From NCBI GenBank assembly GCA_964558935.1, contig CAZLFP010000001.1:83260-147259 (forward strand): a DNA stretch of 64,000 bases. The letters run 5' to 3'. The position numbers were made by a program, and so were the translations under genes. The notes beneath the pieces are model-generated. The model worked only from the letters and a program-made list of their open reading frames with translations. It searched no databases and was not told the origin of the DNA. Source of the DNA: an uncultured Gammaproteobacteria bacterium (lineage in GTDB: Bacteria > Patescibacteriota > Patescibacteriia > 2-01-FULL-39-33). Shown one piece after another: positions 9,343-58,688 of the stretch. Each line of letters opens with the position of its first letter. The first letter of the stretch is position 1.

Positions 9343-9750
9343 ATGACTCCAGAAGAAAAACAAAATCAAGAAAAAATAAAGGCATTATTTATTGAACAAT
9401 TAAAAAAGACACCTGTTGTGCAAGTAGTCTGTGAAAAAATCCAAATTGGTAAGAGTAGTATATATCGCTGGAAAAAATCTGATAAAGAATTTAAAAAGGC
9501 AGTAGATGAAGCCATGTCTGAAGGAACAGATTATATTTCTGATATGGCTGAGAGTAGATTAATTGAAGCTATAAGAGATAGAAATTTGCGTGCCGTATTT
9601 TTTTGGCTTAAGTCCCATTCAAATCGTTATTCCACTAAAGTTGAAATCAATGGACGACTTAAGATGGAAAATGAACCACTAACGCAGGATCAACAGGACT
9701 TAATAAAAAAAGCCTTGGAATATTCAGGTTTGTTAAATGATAAAAAATAG
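9343..9750 (+). CDS. terS: Phage terminase small subunit-like protein
   Basis: 135 aa with an HTH-like N-terminus (GKSSIYRWKK). Immediately upstream of the large terminase gene and overlapping it. Confidence 0.5.
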   Translation: MTPEEKQNQEKIKALFIEQLKKTPVVQVVCEKIQIGKSSIYRWKKSDKEFKKAVDEAMSEGTDYISDMAESRLIEAIRDRNLRAVFFWLKSHSNRYSTKVEINGRLKMENEPLTQDQQDLIKKALEYSGLLNDKK

Positions 9751-29779: not shown

Positions 29780-31192
29780 ATGCCGGATCAGACTCAAAGT
29801 TTAAACAAATTACCACCCCAAAACCTCGAAGCCGAAGAATCGCTGTTGGGTGCTTTACTCTTGGACAAGGATGCTGTCATTAAAGTGGCAGACTTAGTTA
29901 CCGGTGAAGACTTTTATTCAGATAATAATGGTTTGATTTACGATACTATTCTGGAACTGTTTGAGAAAAAACAAGCCATTGATCTATTGAGCTTAACCAG
30001 TCGATTACAGGAGAGAAACATACTGGACAAGATCGGAGGCCGCAGCTACTTGGTTAATTTGGGTAATCAGGTCCCCTCTTCCGCCCATGTCATATCCTAT
30101 GCTCAAATAATTCAGAAGAAAGCGACATTAAGAAGATTGATTTCTGCTGCTAACCATATTCTGGAGTTGGGTTTCCAGGAAGAGAAAGAGATTAATGAAG
30201 TCTTAGATAAATCTGAACAGTCCATTTTTAGTGTTTCCCAAAAATATTTAAAAGAAAAGTTTACCCCCATCAAGGACATACTGGCCGGTGCTTTTGAAAG
30301 AATTGAAGAATTACATCGAGAAAAAGGTAAGCTCAGAGGCTTACCCACTGGTTTTAAACAGTTGGATAACTTATTGGGCGGTTTGCAAAAATCAGATTTG
30401 GTGATTTTAGCAGCCAGACCTTCGGTCGGTAAAACTTCCTTAGCTTTGGATATGGCCAGGCAAATCGCCACCAAGGCCAAAAAAGCAGTGGGTATTTTTT
30501 CATTGGAAATGTCCAAAGAACAGTTAGTGGATAGGTTGATTTGTGCTGAAGCGGGAATTGGACTGTGGAAAATGCGTACCGGTAGATTGTCTGAAGGTGG
30601 TGATGATTTTCCGAAAATCGGACAGGCTATGAGTGAATTGTCTGAATCCCAAATCTATATCGATGATTTTGCCAATACCAATGTGATGGAACTTAGAACC
30701 AAAGCCAGGAGACTTCAAATGGAACATGGCTTGGATATTATTATCTTAGACTATTTACAATTAATGGAAGGCACTGGTTCTCGGTCATCAGATAATCGAG
30801 TTCAGGAAATTGCTGAAATTTCCAGAGCTTTAAAAGGGATTGCCAGAGAATTAGATATACCGGTGTTAGCTTTATCTCAGCTGTCAAGAGCGGTTGAAGC
30901 CAATCATCCAGCCATTCCCAAGCTCTCCCATCTTAGAGAATCCGGCTCTATTGAGCAAGACGCTGATGTGGTTATGTTTATCTACCGTAAAGCTGCTGAC
31001 CGGGGGTATGATCTTAATTCATTGTCAGAAGAAGAAAAACATACGGCTGAAATCCATATTGCCAAGCACAGAAATGGACCAACCGGCGTAGTTAATCTGT
31101 ATTTCGATGCTGAACAGGTCTGTTTCAAAAATTTAGACACTACCCATGAAGTACCGGCTGATGTGGATCATGAGGTTCAAGCTGCTATTTAA
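29780..31192 (+). CDS. dnaB: Replicative DNA helicase DnaB
   Basis: 470 aa. Walker A is ARPSVGKTSLALDMA, and an SQLSRAVE-type motif is present. Confidence 0.9.
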   Translation: MPDQTQSLNKLPPQNLEAEESLLGALLLDKDAVIKVADLVTGEDFYSDNNGLIYDTILELFEKKQAIDLLSLTSRLQERNILDKIGGRSYLVNLGNQVPSSAHVISYAQIIQKKATLRRLISAANHILELGFQEEKEINEVLDKSEQSIFSVSQKYLKEKFTPIKDILAGAFERIEELHREKGKLRGLPTGFKQLDNLLGGLQKSDLVILAARPSVGKTSLALDMARQIATKAKKAVGIFSLEMSKEQLVDRLICAEAGIGLWKMRTGRLSEGGDDFPKIGQAMSELSESQIYIDDFANTNVMELRTKARRLQMEHGLDIIILDYLQLMEGTGSRSSDNRVQEIAEISRALKGIARELDIPVLALSQLSRAVEANHPAIPKLSHLRESGSIEQDADVVMFIYRKAADRGYDLNSLSEEEKHTAEIHIAKHRNGPTGVVNLYFDAEQVCFKNLDTTHEVPADVDHEVQAAI

Positions 31193-31206: not shown

Positions 31207-31503
31207 ATGTTCAACAAATTAAAACAAATTCAAGATCTGAGACAGCAAGCCAACCAAATTAAAACTGCTTTGGCTCAAGAGACGGTTGAAGGCAGTGGAG
31301 CTTGGGGTAAAATTATCATTACCATGGATGGTAACCAAGAAGTTAAGCAAGTTCAGATAGATCCTGAAATTTTGTCAGATCAGTCAAAAGTTGAGACGGG
31401 AGTTAAAGATGCTACAAATGATGCGATTAAAAAGGTGCAAAAAGTCATGGCTCAAAAAATGCAGCAAATGGGTGGTTTGAATTTACCGGGCATGGGTCAA
31501 TAA
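31207..31503 (+). CDS. ybaB: Nucleoid-associated protein YbaB/EbfC
   Basis: 98 aa: MFNKLKQIQDLRQQANQ...GGLNLPG. Confidence 0.8.
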   Translation: MFNKLKQIQDLRQQANQIKTALAQETVEGSGAWGKIIITMDGNQEVKQVQIDPEILSDQSKVETGVKDATNDAIKKVQKVMAQKMQQMGGLNLPGMGQ

Positions 31504-31558
31504 AAAAGGCCTCATCACCAAAAAATGATGATGAGGCGTCGACGATGGACCGCTGTGA

Positions 31559-31597
31559 CTAGATAAAAGCAAGCAGGAACAGGATAAACGCGAACAT
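31559..31597 (-). CDS. 12-aa hydrophobic mini-ORF (MFAFILFLLAFI) with its own promoter, SD (GAGGAG) and terminator; likely a truncated paralog or leader of the Gly-zipper gene family
   Basis: Its promoter (TTGACA-N17-TAAGAT) and RBS context are near-identical to those of the two downstream small-protein genes. A hairpin plus T-run follows. Confidence 0.3.
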   Translation of the reverse strand: MFAFILFLLAFI

Positions 31598-31644
31598 GGC
31601 TTTCTCCTCGGTATTTCTACTGGCCCATCCAATAGAATAGAGCA

Positions 31645-31673
31645 TCTTAGCACATTAGTGTAATATTGTCAAG
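31645..31673 (-). promoter_or_regulatory. Promoter module copy 1 (TTGACA-N17-TAAGAT)
   Basis: Shares the cTTGACAatatta context with copy 2. Confidence 0.4.
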
Positions 31674-31708
31674 CGTAAAAAAATAACCCCTAACTTTGCA
31701 GCTAGGGG
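31673..31708 (-). terminator. Rho-independent terminator of the small-protein genes (ccccta...tagggg stem followed by T7 on the reverse strand)
   Basis: Hairpin plus poly-T just downstream of the stop at 31719. Confidence 0.5.
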
Positions 31709-31718
31709 GTGGAAAACT

Positions 31719-32015
31719 CTAGGCCAGGGAGCCGATCAGCAACAAGCCGACCAACCTGCCGAGACCAACAATGCCTTCGACTACCATGCCGACTACCGGA
31801 GCAATTCCGTGGTAGACGGCAATACCGGCACCAAACATGGCGCCGATAACCGGTGCCAGCATTTCACTGATCACCTCAATCGGACCTGCCGAATCCCATA
31901 ACATTGTCTTTCCTCCGTTGTCTAACCCAATGCCCAATGCATTAGATTGAAATATATTAGCATGTATTAATAATATTGTCAAGAGGAATATAATAAAAAA
32001 GGCCAAGATTCTCAT
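31719..32015 (-). CDS. Gly/Ala-rich glycine-zipper membrane peptide, paralog B. Likely true start is Met38 (MLWDSAGPIEV..., about 61 aa, RBS GGAGGA)
   Basis: The C-terminal 60 aa show a GxxxG/AxxxG periodicity. A promoter falls inside the annotated N-terminal extension. The gene is GC-rich (about 55%). Confidence 0.55.
   Translation of the reverse strand: MRILAFFIIFLLTILLIHANIFQSNALGIGLDNGGKTMLWDSAGPIEVISEMLAPVIGAMFGAGIAVYHGIAPVVGMVVEGIVGLGRLVGLLLIGSLA
31952..31980 (-). promoter_or_regulatory. Promoter module copy 2 (TTGACA-N17-TAATAT)
   Basis: Followed by RBS GGAGGAAAGACA-ATG of the MLWDSAG start. Confidence 0.4.
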
Positions 32016-32041
32016 AAGTCGCTACAAAGAGAATCTTGGCC
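32001..32041 (-). repeat. 13-bp perfect inverted repeat (ggccaagattctc ... gagaatcttggcc) between the two paralogous small genes
   Basis: Strong hairpin with no T-run. Candidate intercistronic processing or attenuation element. Confidence 0.5.
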
Positions 32042-32047
32042 GATAGC

Positions 32048-32497
32048 CTAGAGGGCAAGCACGAGTGCAATCCCCAGAATGCCGGCAATCCCGAACAAGG
32101 GACCGGCAATGAGGGCGCCTCCTACTAACAGCGGTATGCCAACGGCGACAACTGCTGTGGCAGCAAGAGCTAGGCCACCTACAAGCGCCGCACCGGTGCC
32201 CAGGGCAGCCAGGGTACCTCCCGTCAAAGCGATCAGATCGGTTCCGACATCAATGCCGGAATCATGACCGTAATCGAACTCGAAGGCCATGGCGGACTGA
32301 CTGGCACCCAACATGATCACCATGATCAATACCGGGAAAAACAGCTGTCGGATCACGTTCAGACTGAATTCCATCAACAGCCAAATGGGCTGCAGATTGA
32401 TTTCAAAGCTGGCCGTGGTTTCCTCCCACCAGTGCAATCCCGATGTAAGGGGGTTCCAATTCCACAACATATCGTTTTCCTCCAACATTTGGAACAA
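32048..32497 (-). CDS. Gly/Ala-rich glycine-zipper membrane protein, paralog A. Likely true start is Met10 (MLWNWNPLTSG..., about 140 aa, RBS GGAGGA)
   Basis: Internal signal-peptide-like segment (LFFPVLIMVIMLGASQSAMA) is followed by a 75-aa Gly-zipper. Shares the MLW start with paralog B. Confidence 0.55.
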   Translation of the reverse strand: MFQMLEENDMLWNWNPLTSGLHWWEETTASFEINLQPIWLLMEFSLNVIRQLFFPVLIMVIMLGASQSAMAFEFDYGHDSGIDVGTDLIALTGGTLAALGTGAALVGGLALAATAVVAVGIPLLVGGALIAGPLFGIAGILGIALVLAL

Positions 32498-32566
32498 ACG
32501 TTACGCACTTTCAATCTCTGACTTGTTCAGAGTTGAAGTGCTAATCCTAAACTTTAGGATCAAACC

Positions 32567-32595
32567 ATCTTACCATTATTACTCTTTTTTGTCAA
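32567..32595 (-). promoter_or_regulatory. Promoter module copy 3 (TTGACA-N17-TAAGAT) with a ~95-nt structured 5' UTR
   Basis: Same -10 hexamer as copy 1. Confidence 0.4.
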
Positions 32596-32610
32596 TAGTT
32601 AAGTATTAAA

Positions 32611-33102
32611 ATGACTAAATTTAAACAAATAAGTATTCAATATGCTGCCCAATTACTAAATTTGTGGCAAATGAATCTACTGGAACCGGCCAATTTTTTA
32701 GTAGATCCGGATAAATTTGATGTTAATCTTCAAGATCTCCAAGCTCAACTTAATTCCCCTTATGACCATTACTTCGGTGCTTTTAACGGTCAACAATTAA
32801 TCGCTTATTGCCTGCTGAGGCAGGGTGAGTATTTAAAAAACCGGCATACTGCCAGCTTGGAAATCTATGTCAGACCGGAAGTGCGAGAACAAGGAATTGG
32901 TTTGTCTTTATGTCAATTCAGTTTAAACAATATCAGACAACAAGGTGTGAAGCGTGTTACACTAGAGGTATGGGCCAATAATCCATCTGCTTTAAAGTTG
33001 TATCAAAAGATGGGTTTTAAATTAGAGGGAACTTGCCACAAGGCATATAAAATTGGAGCCAAGTATGTAGATAGTTATTTACTGGCCAAGTGGTTAGCCT
33101 AA
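32611..33102 (+). CDS. GNAT-family N-acetyltransferase
   Basis: 163 aa with VRPEVREQGIGLSLCQ (acetyl-CoA-binding motif A). Confidence 0.7.
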   Translation: MTKFKQISIQYAAQLLNLWQMNLLEPANFLVDPDKFDVNLQDLQAQLNSPYDHYFGAFNGQQLIAYCLLRQGEYLKNRHTASLEIYVRPEVREQGIGLSLCQFSLNNIRQQGVKRVTLEVWANNPSALKLYQKMGFKLEGTCHKAYKIGAKYVDSYLLAKWLA

Positions 33103-33710
33103 TTATTATAACTATGCATCCCAAACAAATCCAAAATTTGATTAATCAATTAGCTAGATTACCGAGTATTGGCCCCAAAAGCGCTGAAAGATTGGTTTTT
33201 TATTTGGTTAAACAGTCTCAAGCAGACTTGGAGATCTTGGCTAAAAGTATTCAAGATTTAAAGGCTAGTTTAACCACGTGTGAATGTTGTGGCAATTATA
33301 CCGTCGCTAATCCTTGCAGTATTTGTTCAGATACCAGACGTAATCGAGGTTTAATTTGTGTCGTCGCCAAACCGCAAGATATTTTAGCTTTGGAGAAAAC
33401 CGGTCACTATCACGGAGTCTACCATCTTTTGGGTGGCACTTTAAATGCACTGGCAGACATTAAACCCTCGGATTTAAATCTAAGTCGGTTAATTCAAAGA
33501 TTAAAAAAAGATCAAATTCAAGAAGTCATCTTAGCCTTTAACCCGGATATGGAAGGAGAAACTACCATGCTTTATTTAGCCAAACTGATCAAACAATATC
33601 CAGATATTAAAATCAGTCGTTTAGCTAGAGGTTTGCCCATGGGTGCTGATCTGGAGTACGCTGATGAGGTGACGCTCGACAATGCCCTAAACAGTCGTCA
33701 GTCCATCTAA
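33090..33710 (+). CDS. recR: Recombination protein RecR
   Basis: Zn-finger CECCGNYTVANPCSICSD plus a Toprim domain. Confidence 0.85.
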   Translation: MVSLIIITMHPKQIQNLINQLARLPSIGPKSAERLVFYLVKQSQADLEILAKSIQDLKASLTTCECCGNYTVANPCSICSDTRRNRGLICVVAKPQDILALEKTGHYHGVYHLLGGTLNALADIKPSDLNLSRLIQRLKKDQIQEVILAFNPDMEGETTMLYLAKLIKQYPDIKISRLARGLPMGADLEYADEVTLDNALNSRQSI

Positions 33711-43682: not shown

Positions 43683-43795
43683 ACCTTAATTATACCAAAT
43701 AATAGTCTAACACATATATTGACATAATAGGTCATATGTGATACAATATATTTCGTATTCCCAGAATAGTTTGGGGATAAACTGGAGGAATTGAG

Positions 43796-46678: not shown

Positions 46679-48082
46679 TTATTCTGTCTTCCTTTTCTTT
46701 AAAACCGCCCAAGGTGTTTTAAAGAGTATCATCAGGTCTAATTTGAGACTCCAGTTTTCCATATACCAAGTATCCAATTTTATCTCTTCCTCAAAATCCA
46801 AATCTGAGCGACCTGACACTTGAGCCATACCGGTCATGCCCGGTTTGATCGTTAACACTTTCTTATGCTCTGTTTTATACCTTTCAACTTCTTCAATTTC
46901 ATGTGGACGAGGTCCAACCAAACTCATTTTACCGATGAGCACATTAAACAATTCCGGGAGTTCATCAATACTGTATCGTCGAATAAAACGTCCGATTGGT
47001 GTAATCCTGGGATCATTTTGAAATTTCATTAATGGCGATCCCTGTCTGAGATCGGTTTGTTGCTTAACAAATTCAGTATCAAATCTCATCTTGTGAGCGT
47101 CCTTAACCATAGATCTGAATTTAAAATAATTAAATGGTTTGCCGTACTGACCAATTCTGTAATAGCTAAAGAAAACCGGTCCGGGTGAAGTTAGCTTAAC
47201 GGCCAGAGAGGTTAGAATTAGAACTGGTGAAAGAAGAATAATAATTACCAGACTGAATATGAAATCAAATATTCTCTTATAAATCTTACCCCAACCATCT
47301 AAAGGAGTTTTATTCAATTCCACAATCGGCAAACCGGATATGGTGTTAATCTGGAAATTATGCAGTGGAAAATCAAAAATATCTGCGACAAATTTTAAAG
47401 CAATATGATTAACGTAAGAAAAATCGTTTAACCTATTTAACTGAGAGGTGCTTAAATTCGGATTAACAACCAATATTTCATCAAATTTGTCTTGTTGTAT
47501 CATTTTGACCAATTGGGCTTCAATTTCTTTACTAAAATCTGGCACTGACTTCTCAACTCGGTAACCAGCTTTAGGATTGTTCTTAAAAATAGCGTTAGCT
47601 TCTTGAGTCAAAGCATTATCTCCAATAATTACCAATCTGTGAACACCTATACCGTAATTATACAAATGGCTTTGCAGCCATCGGACCAGACTTCTGCCAA
47701 TGATCACAAAAATAATGCTGAATAACCAGCCGGCAATGATAATAAATCTGGAGTCAAACAAGGAACGACTGAAGAAAAAAATGAACATTAAGGTCATAAC
47801 GGCTGTAGAACAACCCAGAACAATCTTACCCAGTTCATCGACCGCTCTTCGGGTGCCGGTCATGTTATACAAACCGGCTAAAGCAAAAGTAATAACCCAA
47901 ATAAAAGCAATGGGCCACAACACCTGCCAAAACTCAATCAATCTTAAATCAAAAATAATGGGACGAATATCCCGTATGGGCTGTAAATATCTAATTGAAT
48001 AAGCGGCTAAACCAGCTAGGATAACCATCAGATAATCCAATGGCACCAAACTAGCTGAAATAGCTAACTCAGATCTTTTCAT
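46679..48082 (-). CDS. Undecaprenyl-phosphate sugar phosphotransferase (WbaP/CpsE-type bacterial sugar transferase)
   Basis: 467 aa with N-terminal TM segments and C-terminal PGMTGMAQVSGRSDL. Confidence 0.75.
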   Translation of the reverse strand: MKRSELAISASLVPLDYLMVILAGLAAYSIRYLQPIRDIRPIIFDLRLIEFWQVLWPIAFIWVITFALAGLYNMTGTRRAVDELGKIVLGCSTAVMTLMFIFFFSRSLFDSRFIIIAGWLFSIIFVIIGRSLVRWLQSHLYNYGIGVHRLVIIGDNALTQEANAIFKNNPKAGYRVEKSVPDFSKEIEAQLVKMIQQDKFDEILVVNPNLSTSQLNRLNDFSYVNHIALKFVADIFDFPLHNFQINTISGLPIVELNKTPLDGWGKIYKRIFDFIFSLVIIILLSPVLILTSLAVKLTSPGPVFFSYYRIGQYGKPFNYFKFRSMVKDAHKMRFDTEFVKQQTDLRQGSPLMKFQNDPRITPIGRFIRRYSIDELPELFNVLIGKMSLVGPRPHEIEEVERYKTEHKKVLTIKPGMTGMAQVSGRSDLDFEEEIKLDTWYMENWSLKLDLMILFKTPWAVLKKRKTE

Positions 48083-48140
48083 ATCTATATTTTATCATTA
48101 TCTAATAGAAAAAGCGACCGTACACGGACGATCGCTTAGA

Positions 48141-48438
48141 AACTTGTGAGAGGAGGATGCCTTAAATTTGTTAATCCGCGACATGGATATATCACGGATT
48201 ATCAACTGATATGTCGATCATACCTGAGTGCATCTCATTAGCCTGAGAAGGCCGCCCGCAACCCGGCGTCAGCTGTTCATTCTTCCCCAGGAAAGTCAGG
48301 AAGCGAACTCATCACCAATCCATGTCTTAGTCAGGCACGGCTCTAAATCTTGGTTCACGCAACTCCTAGGCGTCTTCCTGTGCCTAAGTGGCACGCCTGT
48401 AAGCTGTACGCAACCTTGATTTCCTCCTCTCATCAACC
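48141..48438 (+). ncRNA. GC-rich structured RNA with ends paired (gtgagaggagga / tcctcctctcat); candidate long-form SRP RNA, identity unresolved
   Basis: About 55% GC in a 35% background. Shows terminal complementarity and internal pairing (caggaag/cttcctg; cttag..ggcac/gtgcctaag). The stretch CCCGCAAC...CUGUU...CCAGG..GUCAGG..AAGC resembles the 5' strand of SRP RNA helix 8, but the canonical GGAA tetraloop was not found. Confidence 0.35.
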
Positions 48439-48760
48439 TCTCAGCTGATAGCCACATTGTATCATAGATTCATATATATGTCAAGAATATTGCTCGTATA
48501 TTCCTAGATAAATGTCTAAATTTAAATAAAAAAAGAGCCGCCAGCTTGACTCTTTGCCTTATCTTACCTCCAGACCATCATACGGTGACAGTCTGAGTGA
48601 TCCCAAAATGCTTTCTCAAAAGCTTCGGTTCTGCTGGCGGCTGAAAAGCCCTAAGAGTGATGGCAGCAACTGACGACGGATCAGTTGCCGAGCTCGTGCT
48701 TGTCTCACACCTTAAAGCTGTTATTAGTATAGCATATTAATTATTATTCTTACAGCCATA

Positions 48761-48792
48761 TTGACAAAACAGTTCCAATATGATAGTATAAT
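48761..48792 (+). promoter_or_regulatory. rnpB promoter (TTGACA ... TATAAT)
   Basis: TTGACA at 48761 and TATAAT at 48787, just upstream of the P1 helix. Confidence 0.4.
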
Positions 48793-48799
48793 AAATGTT

Positions 48800-49183
48800 C
48801 AAACCGGCCGGATGACTGCTTTATTCTAAATAAAGAGGAAAGTCCGAACACCTCCTGAGTTATCGGGAAAGCGGTAGTGGGTAACGCCCACCCTTTAACT
48901 TGTAAAAGTTAAAGAGGACCAGTTCCACAGAGACAATACTAATCTGTTCAACCTGAATGGATGAAAGGTGAAAAGTGTTAAGGTGTTATAGTTTAAACTT
49001 GGGATATCCTTTTAAACTACAGCTACTTAACTCAGCCTCTGGTGACAGAAGGCTAGTGGTAAACTCTACCTGGTGCAACCCCAAATATAGTCGGGGGCTT
49101 GAATCTAACAGCAATGTTAGATCTAGATAGATGGTCATCCTTCACTCTAGTGAAGACAGAATTCGGCTTACAAGCTGGTTTGG
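48800..49183 (+). ncRNA. rnpB: RNase P RNA, bacterial type A
   Basis: Conserved blocks found: GAGGAAAGUCCG (P4 5' strand), GGUAACGCC, CACAGAGA, AAAGGUGAAA, GGUAAACUC, CAAAUA..GGGGG, and ACAGAAUUCGGCUUA (P4 3' strand). P1 pairs caaaccggc with gctggtttg. A terminator follows. Confidence 0.9.
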
Positions 49184-49192
49184 ATATAATAA

Positions 49193-58509: not shown

Positions 58510-58688
58510 TATGGATAATAGTCTCAGCTATTCCAAACGGTGACAACAACGCCACCTACAGTTTGGATATAATATAACTGCCCTAGACCAACTAAAGCAG
58601 ATCTTAGATATTAACACATCCGTTAAAATCTGTCAATCAAAAAATACCCCCGTTTTAAGGGAGTATTTTTATCTAAAATCAGAAATAT

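What the first reader, a model, noticed from the sequence alone, without database searches (positions are those of the whole stretch)
31504..32610. GC-rich islet inserted between ybaB and recR encoding two paralogous glycine-zipper membrane peptides
ybaB and recR are normally adjacent. Here about 1.6 kb intervenes, of which about 1.1 kb is 55% GC. It carries two reverse-strand genes whose likely true products are 61 aa and 140 aa. Both begin with MLW, and their C-terminal halves are almost pure Gly/Ala/Val/Leu/Ile with GxxxG periodicity. The larger one has an internal signal-peptide-like segment. No homolog family is evident to me. Candidate roles include a membrane-active toxin or bacteriocin-like peptide pair, holin-like proteins, or a glycine-zipper pore.
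Basis: partly seen in the sequence, partly recalled or inferred. Interest (0 to 1): 0.65.

Follow-up and report, generated by a model that had tools for sequence, protein, structure and literature searches.

The report
Orphan membrane mini-genes between ybaB, recR
A 1.1-kb stretch between two housekeeping genes of a Patescibacteria (CPR) genome holds three tiny genes, each with its own promoter and terminator. Two of them encode very hydrophobic small membrane proteins with no detectable relative in any database searched; the "glycine zipper" and "paralogue" labels do not hold up, and the function is unknown.

Summary
The genes are real, but their description needs correcting.

**What is there**
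- ybaB and recR are normally neighbours: the median spacer is about 90 nt in 54 Patescibacteria loci. Here 1.6 kb intervenes.
- The minus strand carries three autonomous units, each with a full-consensus extended -10 promoter, a Shine-Dalgarno site and an intrinsic terminator.

**Coding and orphan status**
- p140 has 1 Arg+Lys against 12.4±2.9 expected, and GRAVY 1.11 against 0.15.
- No relative appeared in 5.8 billion indexed proteins, a full HMMER scan of 1.84 billion representatives, or contig scans.

- The interval is 48% GC overall. Only the two coding sequences are 56% GC (GC3 0.64-0.65 against 0.33±0.09).
- GxxxG motifs are not enriched.
- p61 and p140 are not detectably paralogous beyond their first four codons.

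**Context**
- No transporter, immunity, phage or type IV secretion gene lies nearby.
- The same promoter class drives two other GC3-rich, family-less secreted or lipoprotein genes in the window.

**Best reading:** strongly expressed, lineage-specific, compositionally foreign small integral membrane proteins of unknown role. Toxin, bacteriocin and de novo origin readings remain open.

The parts
32567..32595 (-). U1 promoter, TTGACA-17-TAAGAT with an extended -10 TG. It is divergent from the GNAT start at 32611.
   Evidence: The pattern TTGACA-N14-TGNTANNNT occurs 7 times in 64 kb against 0.04 expected, and 3 of the 7 lie in this islet.
32471..32560 (-). U1 5' UTR of about 90 nt. It has two hairpins (including GCACTTCAACTCTGA...TCAGAGATTGAAAGTGC) and the Shine-Dalgarno site GGAGGA at 32478-32483. 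A local stem (UUCCA/UGGAG) can occlude the Shine-Dalgarno site.
   Evidence: Sequence; fold (whole U1 transcript z = -4.67).
32048..32470 (-). p140 coding sequence (140 aa plus stop). Residues 1-40 form a Trp-rich polar head. Residues 41-62 (R-QLFFPVLIMVIMLGASQSAMA) are a signal-anchor or cleavable signal. Residues 63-78 are an acidic loop (FEFDYGHDSGIDVGTD). Residues 79-140 are a continuous Gly/Ala/Val/Leu/Ile-rich hydrophobic tail.
   Evidence: GC3 is 0.64. Arg+Lys is 1 against 12.4±2.9 (0 of 5000 shuffles). GRAVY is 1.11 against 0.15±0.18. The ORF stays open in 55 of 5000 shuffles. Only itself is found in the protein databases.
31992..32041 (-). U1 intrinsic terminator: a 13-bp perfect stem (32029-32041 with 32001-13), a 15-nt loop, then TTTTTTATT.
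   Evidence: inverted repeat I3, direct repeat D5; sequence.
31954..31982 (-). U2 promoter, TTGACA-17-TAATAT with TG. It lies inside the annotated 98-aa ORF.
   Evidence: It shares the exact 13-mer CTTGACAATATTA with the U3 promoter, and these are the only two exact copies in the window.
31719..31904 (-). p61 coding sequence (61 aa plus stop), with Shine-Dalgarno GGAGGA at 31911-31916. The N-terminus MLWDSAGPIEVISEM is acidic and is followed by a 47-residue hydrophobic stretch.
   Evidence: GC3 is 0.65, against 0.35 in the 37 codons upstream. Arg+Lys is 1 against 6.4 (P = 0.004). Only itself is found.
31677..31708 (-). U2 intrinsic terminator, CCCCTAGCTGCAAAGTTAGGGG followed by a T-run.
31644..31672 (-). 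U3 promoter, TTGACA-17-TAAGAT with TG.
31559..31597 (-). U3 mini-ORF MFAFILFLLAFI* behind Shine-Dalgarno GAGGAG (31604-31609). Alternatively U3 is a small RNA of about 135 nt.
   Evidence: translation; fold z = -2.92; GC3 0.67, islet-like. No significant pairing with the U1 or U2 mRNAs.
31499..31537 (-). U3 intrinsic terminator: a 12-bp stem followed by CTTTTTTATT. The tail overlaps the last codons of the convergent ybaB gene.
   Evidence: I8, D5.
31207..31503 (+). ybaB (left flank, context).
   Evidence: PF02575, E = 5e-18.
32611..33710 (+). GNAT acetyltransferase (32611-33102) and recR (33090-33710), the right flank. GNAT is also part of the ybaB-recR gap.
   Evidence: GNAT sits upstream of recR in only one other locus, L014. 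An independent Logan contig is 100% identical over 32101-33406.

Best explanation
The interval is a lineage-specific, compositionally foreign insertion of three self-contained minus-strand transcription units. Each has a promoter of the strongest class in this genome, a Shine-Dalgarno site and its own intrinsic terminator.

Two units encode genuine, probably strongly expressed small integral membrane proteins. They have no catalytic domain and no detectable relatives.

**Proposed mechanism (inferred)**
- p140 inserts with its N-terminus inside. Its only basic residue, R41, lies before the central hydrophobic segment, residues 42-62.
- That segment acts as a signal-anchor, or as a signal cleaved after A-M-A.
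- The acidic loop, residues 63-78, faces outward.
- The 62-residue Gly/Ala/Val/Leu/Ile tail is buried as a helical hairpin.
- p61 buries a 47-residue hydrophobic stretch behind a short acidic N-terminus.
- Whatever these proteins do, they do by occupying, packing in or perturbing a membrane.

They belong to a wider set in this genome of strongly promoted, GC3-rich, Lys-poor, family-less envelope or secreted proteins. I therefore read them as accessory envelope proteins of this lineage rather than a dedicated toxin cassette.

**Shown:** the units, coding status, orphan status, insertion relative to related genomes, and atypical synonymous composition.

**Inferred:** expression level, topology, membrane action and foreign origin.
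For: **Unit anatomy**
- Three full-consensus extended -10 promoters lie in the islet. They are 3 of only 7 in 64 kb, against 0.04 expected.
- A Shine-Dalgarno site sits 6-8 nt before each ATG.
- A terminator follows within about 10-20 nt of each stop codon.

**Coding status**
- p140 has 1 Arg+Lys against 12.4±2.9 expected (0 of 5000 shuffles).
- Its GRAVY is 1.11 against 0.15±0.18 (maximum 0.91).
- Its ORF stays open in only 1.1% of shuffles.
- The other five frames are stop-rich and Arg/Lys-rich.
- GC3 jumps from 0.35 to 0.65 exactly at the p61 start codon.

**Foreign composition**
- GC3 is 0.64 and 0.65, against 0.333±0.086 in 41 long ORFs.
- Synonymous usage is shifted toward GCC, GGC, CTG and ATC.

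**Insertion**
- None of 80 related recR loci has either gene.
- The typical ybaB-recR spacer is about 90 nt.

**Orphan status**
- Searches found only the proteins themselves.

**Membrane character**
- KD-19 hydropathy reaches 2.0-2.3 over residues 37-55 and 79-140.
- AlphaFold2 predicts all-helical models, with pLDDT 75 for p140 and 91 for p61.

**Wider class**
- The same promoter pattern drives a 198-aa secreted protein (GC3 0.59) and a 530-aa lipoprotein-like orphan (GC3 0.58). It also drives RNase P RNA.

**Assembly**
- An independent assembly reproduces the p140/GNAT/recR junction.
Against: - There are no expression data, no homologues and therefore no evolutionary evidence of constraint.
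- Topology and signal cleavage rest on rule-of-thumb reading, not on a predictor.
- The single-sequence AlphaFold2 models show implausibly long single helices, so they say little beyond helicity. The fold search was uninformative, with E > 4.
- "Accessory envelope protein" is a weak functional statement. The data do not separate a benign structural role from a membrane-permeabilising one.
- The mRNAs are unusually structured (z = -4.7 and -5.0). In related genomes the same site carries strongly promoted GC-rich transcripts without ORFs. Both points leave room for RNA-level functions.
Confidence: 0.45

Rival explanations
1. The pair is a secreted membrane-active antagonist, that is, a two-peptide bacteriocin, microcin or Cdz-like pair. 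p140 would be exported and cleaved after A-M-A to give a 78-residue acidic hydrophobic peptide. p61 would be exported through an N-terminal leader ending G21-A22. Together they would insert into and permeabilise a neighbour's or host's membrane.
For: - Two adjacent small proteins are very rich in Gly and small hydrophobic residues, as in CdzC/CdzD, where these make up 75% of the mature protein.
- Their lengths fall within the 60-151 residue range of Cdz-like proteins.
- p140 has a signal-like segment with an AxA site (sequence).
- The composition is foreign and the distribution is patchy, as for many bacteriocin loci.
- p61 contains G21xxxG25xxxA29xxxG33.
Against: - No type I secretion, C39 peptidase-ABC transporter or immunity-type gene lies within ±10 kb. 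The only ABC pair is FtsEX.
- Neither protein has a polar or charged C-terminal tail.
- GxxxG is not enriched.
- Both products are acidic and Lys-free, unlike most pore-forming bacteriocins.
- A 40-residue extension precedes the p140 signal-like segment.
- No bacteriocin family was hit in Pfam or NCBIfam, and the 1.84-billion-protein HMMER scan found nothing.
Confidence: 0.12
2. The units are type I toxin-antitoxin-like addiction or stress modules. p61, and perhaps the 12-residue peptide or p140, would be membrane-depolarising toxins. Their translation would be held down by mRNA structure and by an antisense or trans-acting RNA, either U3 or read-through from ybaB on the plus strand.
For: - The genes are small, hydrophobic and arranged in tandem, each with its own promoter and terminator. 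They sit in a variable spacer between conserved genes, as with ibs/sib, ldr/rdl and zor/orz in enterobacteria (established knowledge; review PMC8309996, listed).
- The transcripts are highly structured (z = -4.7, -5.0 and -2.9), with stems that can pair the Shine-Dalgarno sites.
- The three terminators work on the minus strand only, so ybaB read-through would be antisense to all three units (sequence).
Against: - No dedicated antisense promoter-terminator unit was found.
- U3 RNA pairs with U1 and U2 no better than shuffled RNA does (78 of 100 and 72 of 100 shuffles were at least as stable).
- p140 is far larger than known type I toxins.
- Neither protein has the usual polar or charged C-terminus.
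- Full-consensus promoters would be risky for a toxin gene.
Confidence: 0.12
3. These are young or proto-genes with little or no function. The site carries a clade-wide, strongly promoted, GC-rich minus-strand transcript. In this lineage the transcript would have acquired open reading frames that happen to encode hydrophobic peptides, either by de novo birth or as remnants of a decaying insertion.
For: - The closest relatives (DnaB 77-81% identical) have a consensus minus-strand promoter next to recR. It fires into a GC-rich spacer without long ORFs: GC 0.46-0.49 against 0.35-0.43 in L004, L007 and L073.
- There are no homologues at all.
- GC3 is far from the host's codon usage.
- The RNAs are still strongly structured.
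- U3 looks like a degenerate duplicate of the U2 promoter/UTR with only 12 codons.
Against: - The amino-acid composition is far from what the nucleotide composition yields (Arg+Lys and GRAVY lie outside all 5000 shuffles). This argues for sustained selection on the protein.
- No DNA similarity links the islet to the relatives' spacers beyond the promoter consensus.
- The Shine-Dalgarno site, start, stop and terminator are neatly arranged in both genes.
Confidence: 0.15
4. The GC-rich segments are structured non-coding RNAs, and the ORFs are fortuitous.
For: - Fold z-scores are -4.7 and -5.0.
- The same promoter class drives RNase P RNA and an ORF-less GC-rich transcript of about 370 nt at 48110-48484.
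- Related genomes have ORF-less transcripts at this site.
Against: - A Shine-Dalgarno site and ATG sit at the head of an ORF that runs to within 6-10 nt of the terminator in both units.
- The p140 frame stays open in only 1.1% of shuffles, and its Arg+Lys count and GRAVY lie outside all 5000 shuffles.
- Codon-position GC follows a coding pattern: 0.60, 0.44, 0.64.
- Rfam gives no hit with E below 0.2.
- GGC/GCC-rich Gly/Ala coding sequence is inherently self-complementary, which can explain part of the z-score.
Confidence: 0.05
5. p140 is a conjugative-type pilin (VirB2/TrbC/TraA-like). It would have a long leader cleaved after an A-x-A site and a mature peptide of about 78 residues with two hydrophobic segments.
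For: The architecture resembles F-pilin TraA, which has a 51-residue leader ending A-M-A and a 70-residue hydrophobic mature part. This is recalled knowledge, not tested here.
Against: - No Pfam hit to TraA, TrbC or T4SS pilin families at E ≤ 1.
- No type IV secretion genes in the annotated 28 kb around the islet.
- There is no polar loop between the hydrophobic segments.
- Patescibacteria are generally regarded as lacking an outer membrane (recalled knowledge, not tested here).
Confidence: 0.02

Closest known systems
CdzC/CdzD and Cdz-like contact-dependent glycine-zipper bacteriocins (Caulobacter; PMC5380434)
   Same: - Two adjacent small genes are present.
- The products are dominated by Gly and small hydrophobic residues.
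- The length range matches.
- The distribution is patchy and looks horizontally acquired.
- BLAST finds no homologues even among true Cdz family members.
   Different: - There is no CdzAB-type type I secretion system or immunity gene nearby.
- There is no extended GxxxGxxxG zipper in p140, and no enrichment of the motif overall.
- The C-terminus is hydrophobic rather than polar.
- p140 carries a 40-residue N-terminal head and a Sec-type segment rather than a G[G/A/S] leader.
- The host is a Patescibacterium, generally regarded as lacking an outer membrane (recalled knowledge).
Type I toxin-antitoxin toxins (TisB, Ibs, Ldr, ZorO, Fst, BsrG)
   Same: - The peptides are small and hydrophobic.
- Each gene has its own promoter and terminator.
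- The genes are arranged in tandem in a variable intergenic site.
- The mRNAs are long, structured and able to occlude the Shine-Dalgarno site.
   Different: - No antitoxin RNA was found.
- p140 is too large.
- There is no polar or charged C-terminus.
- The proteins are acidic and Lys-free.
- The promoters are of the strongest class in the genome.
Class IIb microcins (MccH47, MccM, MccE492) and class IIb two-peptide bacteriocins
   Same: The peptides are Gly/Ala-rich, hydrophobic and, in the case of microcins, anionic. They are sometimes encoded in pairs. This comparison rests on recalled knowledge.
   Different: - There is no double-glycine leader of canonical form.
- There is no PCAT exporter or immunity gene.
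- There is no Ser-rich C-terminus.
- There is no sequence similarity.
Gly-rich small membrane protein families: GlsB/YeaQ/YmgE (PF04226) and the Gly-zipper Pfam families (PF13488, PF13441, PF13436, PF05433)
   Same: They are small, multi-pass or hairpin membrane proteins rich in Gly and small residues.
   Different: No Pfam model matched either protein, even at E ≤ 1. Those families are broadly conserved housekeeping or stress proteins, whereas these proteins are singletons.

Membership tests
Cdz-like glycine-zipper bacteriocins (criteria from PMC5380434) | Length of 60-151 residues. | tested here: met
   The proteins are 61 and 140 residues long.
Cdz-like glycine-zipper bacteriocins | Predicted secretion leader ending in G[G/A/S]. 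| tested here: inconclusive
   p61 has ...EMLAPVIG21-A22|M, with hydrophobic residues at -4, -7 and -12, but also a Pro at -5 and a shifted Glu. p140 has only a Sec-like A-M-A site after residue 62. Both were read from the sequence, and no predictor was available.
Cdz-like glycine-zipper bacteriocins | One or two extended GxxxGxxxG zippers flanked, but not interrupted, by Pro or a charged residue. | tested here: not met
   The p140 tail has 1 GxxxG against 2.35 expected. p61 has 2 against 1.8, including one G21xxxG25xxxA29xxxG33 run. There is no enrichment and no helical periodicity.
Cdz-like glycine-zipper bacteriocins | [quoted passage not shown] | tested here: not met
   The C-termini are ...GIALVLAL and ...LLLIGSLA.
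Cdz-like glycine-zipper bacteriocins | Type I secretion system (CdzAB-like) within about 10 kb, plus a small transmembrane immunity protein. | tested here: not met
   Pfam annotation of the non-overlapped ORFs of at least 110 aa between 18 and 46 kb found FtsEX, a P-type ATPase, a Na/Ca exchanger, TGT, glycosyltransferases and similar genes. No type I secretion or C39 gene was found.
Type I toxin-antitoxin systems | Small (usually under 60 aa) hydrophobic toxin with one transmembrane helix. | tested here: inconclusive
   p61 is borderline, with 61 aa and a 47-residue hydrophobic stretch. p140 does not fit. The 12-residue ORF is too short to span a bilayer.
Type I toxin-antitoxin systems | Cis-antisense or trans-encoded RNA antitoxin complementary to the toxin mRNA. 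| tested here: not met
   There is no bounded antisense unit. U3 RNA forms duplexes with U1 and U2 no better than shuffled RNA does. Read-through antisense from ybaB cannot be excluded.
Type I toxin-antitoxin systems | Toxicity on overexpression. | not testable with these tools
   This requires an expression experiment.
Pfam/NCBIfam glycine-zipper, holin, bacteriocin and pilin families | Significant match to the family profile. | tested here: not met
   Pfam gave 0 families at E ≤ 1. NCBIfam gave 0 at E ≤ 10. PHROGs gave only E = 0.049 and 0.99 to families of unknown function. PADLOC gave 0. PDB sequence hits were repeat artefacts only.
Holins | Charged, usually basic C-terminal cytoplasmic tail, and a lysis-cassette or phage context. 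| tested here: not met
   Both C-termini are hydrophobic, and each protein has a single Arg and no Lys. There are no phage genes nearby and no match in phage collections.
Sec-dependent secreted or cleaved preprotein (p140) | N-terminal n-h-c signal peptide with an AxA cleavage site. | tested here: inconclusive
   The n-h-c pattern (R41, a 13-residue h-region, ASQSAMA) is present but starts after about 40 residues. The internal Met33 has no Shine-Dalgarno site. No signal-peptide predictor was available.

The most novel reading that the evidence does not exclude
The ybaB-recR spacer of this Buchananbacteria-like clade would be a cradle for new genes. A conserved, very strong divergent promoter next to recR drives GC-rich, fast-evolving transcripts. 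These are ORF-less in sister lineages apart from a conserved 8-codon mini-ORF. In this lineage they would have given rise, de novo or by capture of unsampled foreign DNA, to strongly expressed acidic, Lys-free membrane peptides. Together with the other GC3-rich, consensus-promoter, family-less envelope genes, these peptides would form a lineage-specific surface toolkit of an episymbiont, for example for interaction with a host membrane.
Probability: 0.1. Interest if true: 0.7.

Novelty: new variant of a known kind. Interest (0 to 1): 0.35.

Why it matters
- Patescibacteria have tiny genomes and depend on other cells, so any strongly promoted, lineage-specific envelope protein is a candidate for the poorly understood interface with the host.
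- The locus offers a compact, directly testable set. Two short genes and one 12-codon ORF can be synthesised and assayed for membrane insertion, oligomerisation and toxicity.
- It is also a clean annotation lesson.
  - One product is over-called in the public record, at 98 aa instead of 61 aa.
  - A third unit is not called at all.
- It shows that GC-rich patches in an AT-rich genome can mark a class of orphan envelope genes sharing one promoter type, and not only structured RNAs.
- If the products turn out to be ordinary small membrane proteins, the finding is of local interest only.

Tried and rejected
**Homology**
- Pfam, NCBIfam, PHROGs, PADLOC and PDB sequences gave nothing real.
- The word-indexed 5.8-billion-protein search found only the proteins themselves, for both p140 and p61.
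- A full HMMER scan of 1.84 billion representatives with p140 found only itself.
- tblastn-confirmed scans of metagenome and viral contigs (p140 and p61) and tblastn of phages and plasmids (p140) gave nothing.
- blastn of the whole islet against plasmids gave nothing.

**Structure**
- Single-sequence AlphaFold2 gave only long helices.
- Foldseek against the PDB was uninformative.

**Glycine-zipper idea**
- Rejected by motif counts and helical-moment tests against shuffles.

**Paralogy**
- Rejected by BLASTP and by a Smith-Waterman comparison against shuffles.

**U3 as a trans-acting antitoxin RNA**
- Duplex energies were no better than for shuffled RNA. The first attempt timed out.

**Known RNA families in the islet or in the relatives' spacers**
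- None found.

**Mobile-element signatures**
- No flanking direct repeats beyond the shared terminator tails, and no integrase, transposase or phage genes.

**DNA homology between the islet and the relatives' spacers**
- Only the promoter consensus matched.

**Small hydrophobic ORFs with a Shine-Dalgarno site in the same spacer of related loci**
- None found.

**Source contig**
- Exact-protein look-up succeeded only for GNAT, giving a Logan contig identical to the window.
Full report
**Observation**

The window shows dnaB (29780-31192, +), ybaB (31207-31503, +; PF02575, E = 5e-18), a gap, a GNAT acetyltransferase (32611-33102, +), recR (33090-33710, +), then L21 and a DUF192 gene on the minus strand.

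A scan of one genome per species with the RecR protein returned 80 loci, nearly all Patescibacteria. The best RecR identity was 59%, so the source genome itself is not in that collection. The dnaB-ybaB-recR-L21 order is widely conserved. In 54 loci with ybaB upstream of recR the median spacer is about 90 nt. Seven exceed 300 nt and two exceed 1 kb. The premise that these genes are normally adjacent therefore holds, and the 1.6-kb gap here is unusual. Part of that gap is the GNAT gene, which precedes recR in only one other locus, L014.

**Anatomy**

Reading the minus strand together with the consensus scan shows three complete mini transcription units, not two genes.

| Unit | Promoter | 5' UTR and Shine-Dalgarno site | Product | Terminator |
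|---|---|---|---|---|
| U1 | TTGACA-17-TAAGAT with TG, 32595..32567 | About 90 nt with two hairpins; GGAGGA 8 nt before the ATG at 32470 | p140, stop at 32048 | 13-bp hairpin plus T-run, 32041..31992 |
| U2 | Promoter at 31982..31954 | GGAGGA 7 nt before the ATG at 31904 | p61, stop at 31719 | 31708..31677 |
| U3 | Promoter at 31672..31644 | GAGGAG | 12-codon ORF MFAFILFLLAFI, 31597-31559 | 31537..31499, overlapping the end of convergent ybaB |

- The full pattern TTGACA-N14-TGNTANNNT occurs only seven times in the 64-kb window, against 0.04 expected. Three of the seven are these promoters.
- The U2 promoter lies inside the 98-aa ORF that the public annotation calls (P0002).
- Those extra 37 codons have GC3 0.35, against 0.65 from the MLW start onward.
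- The 140-aa call matches the public protein P0001.

**Are the genes real?**

Yes, on the evidence available.

- Dinucleotide-preserving shuffles of the p140 coding sequence gave an open frame in 55 of 5000 trials.
- Those shuffles gave Arg+Lys of 12.4±2.9 (minimum 3), against 1 observed.
- They gave GRAVY of 0.15±0.18 (maximum 0.91), against 1.11 observed.
- p61 behaves the same way: Arg+Lys is 1 against 6.4 (P = 0.004), and GRAVY is 1.43 against a maximum of 1.31.
- The five other frames of the p140 region are stop-rich, Arg/Lys-rich and not hydrophobic.
- Codon-position GC is 0.60, 0.44, 0.64.
- An independent Logan assembly of run SRR7048221 is 100% identical over 32101-33406, so the p140/GNAT/recR junction is not a chimera.

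**Composition**

- The interval 31504-32610 is 47.9% GC overall, not 55%.
- The two coding sequences are 55.8% and 56.5% GC, and the promoter/UTR spacers are 33-35%, like the host.
- Gly/Ala codons do not explain all of the excess. GC3 is 0.64 and 0.65, against 0.333±0.086 in 41 long ORFs, with shifts toward GCC, GGC, CTG and ATC.

**The proteins**

- p140 has a Trp-rich polar head (five Trp in the first 30 residues).
- It has a single basic residue, R41, followed by a hydrophobic segment ending ASQSAMA (residues 42-62).
- An acidic loop follows (residues 63-78), then 62 uninterrupted Gly/Ala/Val/Leu/Ile-rich residues.
- p61 has an acidic N-terminus and 47 hydrophobic residues.
- Neither protein has a Lys, and both are acidic.
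- Single-sequence AlphaFold2 gives helices only: p140 with pLDDT 75 and pTM 0.34, p61 with pLDDT 91. Foldseek finds nothing.
- The "glycine zipper" label fails.
  - GxxxG occurs once in the p140 tail (2.35 expected) and twice in p61 (1.8 expected).
  - Small-xxx-small motifs are at chance level.
  - Gly and small residues show no helical periodicity.
- "Paralogous" also fails. BLASTP finds nothing, and the best local alignment scores 46 against 40±6.6 for shuffled p61 (P = 0.2).
- What the two genes share is the translation-initiation module GGAGGAAA..ATG-TTR-TGG-RAT (M-L-W-N/D). By background frequencies the chance of Leu-Trp at positions 2-3 is about 1e-3. This is suggestive of a shared origin for the start region but was noticed after the fact.

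**Relatives and context**

- Neither protein has any relative in any of the searches below.
  - Pfam, NCBIfam, PHROGs and PADLOC.
  - PDB sequences, where the only hits were designed Kelch-repeat artefacts.
  - The 5.8-billion-protein index, which returned only the proteins themselves.
  - A filter-only HMMER scan of 1.84 billion representatives with p140, which returned only itself.
  - Metagenome and viral contig scans (p140 and p61) and phage and plasmid searches (p140), and the whole islet against plasmids at DNA level.
- None of the 80 related loci encodes them. None has a hydrophobic ORF preceded by a Shine-Dalgarno site in the same spacer.
- The neighbourhood from 18 to 46 kb is housekeeping or envelope biosynthesis.
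  - Genes found: FtsEX, PpiC/SurA-like, DivIC, a P-type ATPase, a Na/Ca exchanger, TGT, a GT4 (MraY/WecA-like) transferase, DUF11, DUF4012 and glycosyltransferases.
  - No type I secretion, C39 peptidase, type IV secretion, integrase or phage gene is present.

**What the relatives do show**

- The closest genomes (DnaB 77-81% identical) carry a consensus extended -10 promoter on the minus strand next to the recR start. It points toward ybaB into a spacer that is GC-richer than its genome in L004, L007 and L073 and has no convincing ORF.
- In L007 and L073 that transcript opens with a conserved Shine-Dalgarno site and an 8-codon mini-ORF, MKYPVGYV and MEYPSGFV. The remaining roughly 500 nt are not conserved.
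- L001 has two terminator-bounded mini-units.
- No Rfam family matches these spacers.
- The site is therefore a recurrent home for small, strongly promoted minus-strand units whose content differs between lineages.
- Apart from the promoter consensus, no DNA similarity links these spacers to the islet.

**A wider class in the same window**

The four other occurrences of the consensus promoter drive the following.

| Promoter | Product | Notes |
|---|---|---|
| 48761-48789 (+) | RNase P RNA | Known RNA family |
| 48456-48484 (-) | ORF-less GC-rich transcript of about 370 nt, 48110-48484 | No Rfam or tmRNA hit |
| 43719-43747 (+) | 198-aa secreted protein | GC3 0.59; no Pfam or PHROG match |
| 58608-58636 (-) | 530-aa lipoprotein-like protein | GC3 0.58; only itself among 5.8 billion proteins |

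Ribosomal protein L21 has GC3 0.31, so high expression alone does not explain the bias. The islet genes thus belong to a set of strongly promoted, GC3-rich, Lys-poor, family-less envelope or secreted proteins.

**Interpretation**

I commit to the following reading, with confidence about 0.45. The islet is a lineage-specific, compositionally foreign insertion of autonomous mini-genes. Its two larger products are small integral membrane proteins without catalytic domains, acting by occupying or perturbing a membrane.

- p140 is most likely oriented with its N-terminus inside, with a signal-anchor or cleavable segment, an acidic outer loop and a buried hairpin tail.
- Topology, expression level and origin are inferred, not shown.

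Rivals, with their weights:

| Rival | Confidence | Main points |
|---|---|---|
| Secreted two-peptide bacteriocin, Cdz-like | 0.12 | Composition and pairing fit. Four of the five published Cdz-like criteria are unmet or inconclusive, and no exporter or immunity gene is present. |
| Type I toxin-antitoxin-like modules | 0.12 | Tandem autonomous units and very structured mRNAs fit (z = -4.7, -5.0, -2.9). No antitoxin RNA was found, and U3 does not pair with U1 or U2 better than chance. |
| Proto-genes or decaying genes from the clade's GC-rich transcript locus | 0.15 | Fits the relatives and the orphan status. The extreme amino-acid bias argues against it. |
| Non-coding RNAs | 0.05 | Contradicted by the coding statistics. 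|
| Conjugative-type pilin | 0.02 | No supporting genes or profile match. |

**Novelty and interest**

This is a family-less example of a known kind, namely small hydrophobic membrane peptides in a tiny variable islet. Its uncommon features are Lys-free acidic products, shifted synonymous composition, three top-class promoters within 1.1 kb, and a positional link to ORF-less transcripts in sister lineages. With no expression or phenotype data it is moderately interesting (0.35). It would become much more so if the gene-birth or host-interface reading were borne out.

Noticed in passing
L007:9290-9940 (-), L073:9300-9952 (-); also L004:9961-9989, L002:9898-9926, L001:9928-9956 and 9630-9657: Close relatives carry a consensus extended -10 promoter on the minus strand beside the recR start. 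It fires into a spacer with no convincing ORF and no Rfam match, GC-richer than its genome in L004, L007 and L073. In L007 and L073 the transcript opens with a conserved Shine-Dalgarno site and an 8-codon mini-ORF (MKYPVGYV and MEYPSGFV), and the remaining roughly 500 nt are not conserved. This may be an undescribed leader-peptide or non-coding RNA locus.
   Followed up: partly
L001:9282-9956 (-): Two terminator-bounded mini-units lie between dnaB and recR, and no ybaB was detected. The second unit has a Shine-Dalgarno site and an ATG opening the 20-aa ORF MKKNVRRKYGGQAVLGVVFT.
   Followed up: no
window:48110-48484 (-): A GC-rich stretch of about 370 nt without a credible ORF lies behind a full-consensus promoter (48456-48484). 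It ends in a hairpin plus T-run just upstream of a sugar-transferase gene (46679-48082) and is divergent from RNase P RNA. No Rfam or tmRNA match was found. It is a candidate novel structured RNA or long regulatory leader.
   Followed up: partly
window:56917-58509 (-), promoter 58608-58636: A 530-aa lipoprotein-like protein (LTGC lipobox) has 51% GC and GC3 0.58. It has no Pfam or PHROG match and only itself among 5.8 billion proteins. It is driven by the same consensus promoter class as the islet genes.
   Followed up: partly
window:43796-44392 (+), promoter 43719-43747: A 198-aa protein with a signal peptide (MRILLCCAVMLVCFKASA) has GC3 0.59 and no Pfam or PHROG match or relative in viral contigs. 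It has the same promoter class. Together with the items above it suggests a class of GC3-rich, strongly promoted, family-less envelope genes.
   Followed up: partly
window:6074-6203 (-): A LOOT RNA (RF03000) matches at 78 bits, above the gathering score. RNase P RNA lies at 48800-49186.
   Followed up: no
window:31719-32015 (-): The public record holds this gene as a 98-aa protein (P0002). The first 37 codons are the U2 promoter and 5' UTR (GC3 0.35 against 0.65), so the annotated start is probably wrong. The apparent N-terminal signal peptide of the 98-aa form is an artefact of AT-rich promoter DNA.
   Followed up: yes
window:32596-33114 (+): The GNAT gene has no recognisable Shine-Dalgarno site, and its ATG lies 16 nt from the divergent U1 -35 element. 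Its end overlaps the recR ORF. None of the three islet terminators has a T-run on the plus strand. Transcription from dnaB-ybaB could therefore read antisense through the whole islet into GNAT-recR.
   Followed up: no
window:32419-32429 and 32476-32486: The Shine-Dalgarno-containing 11-mer GTKGGAGGAAA is repeated inside the p140 coding sequence at the codons for W-W-E-E, with no start codon at a usable distance. Its significance is unknown (repeat D8).
   Followed up: no
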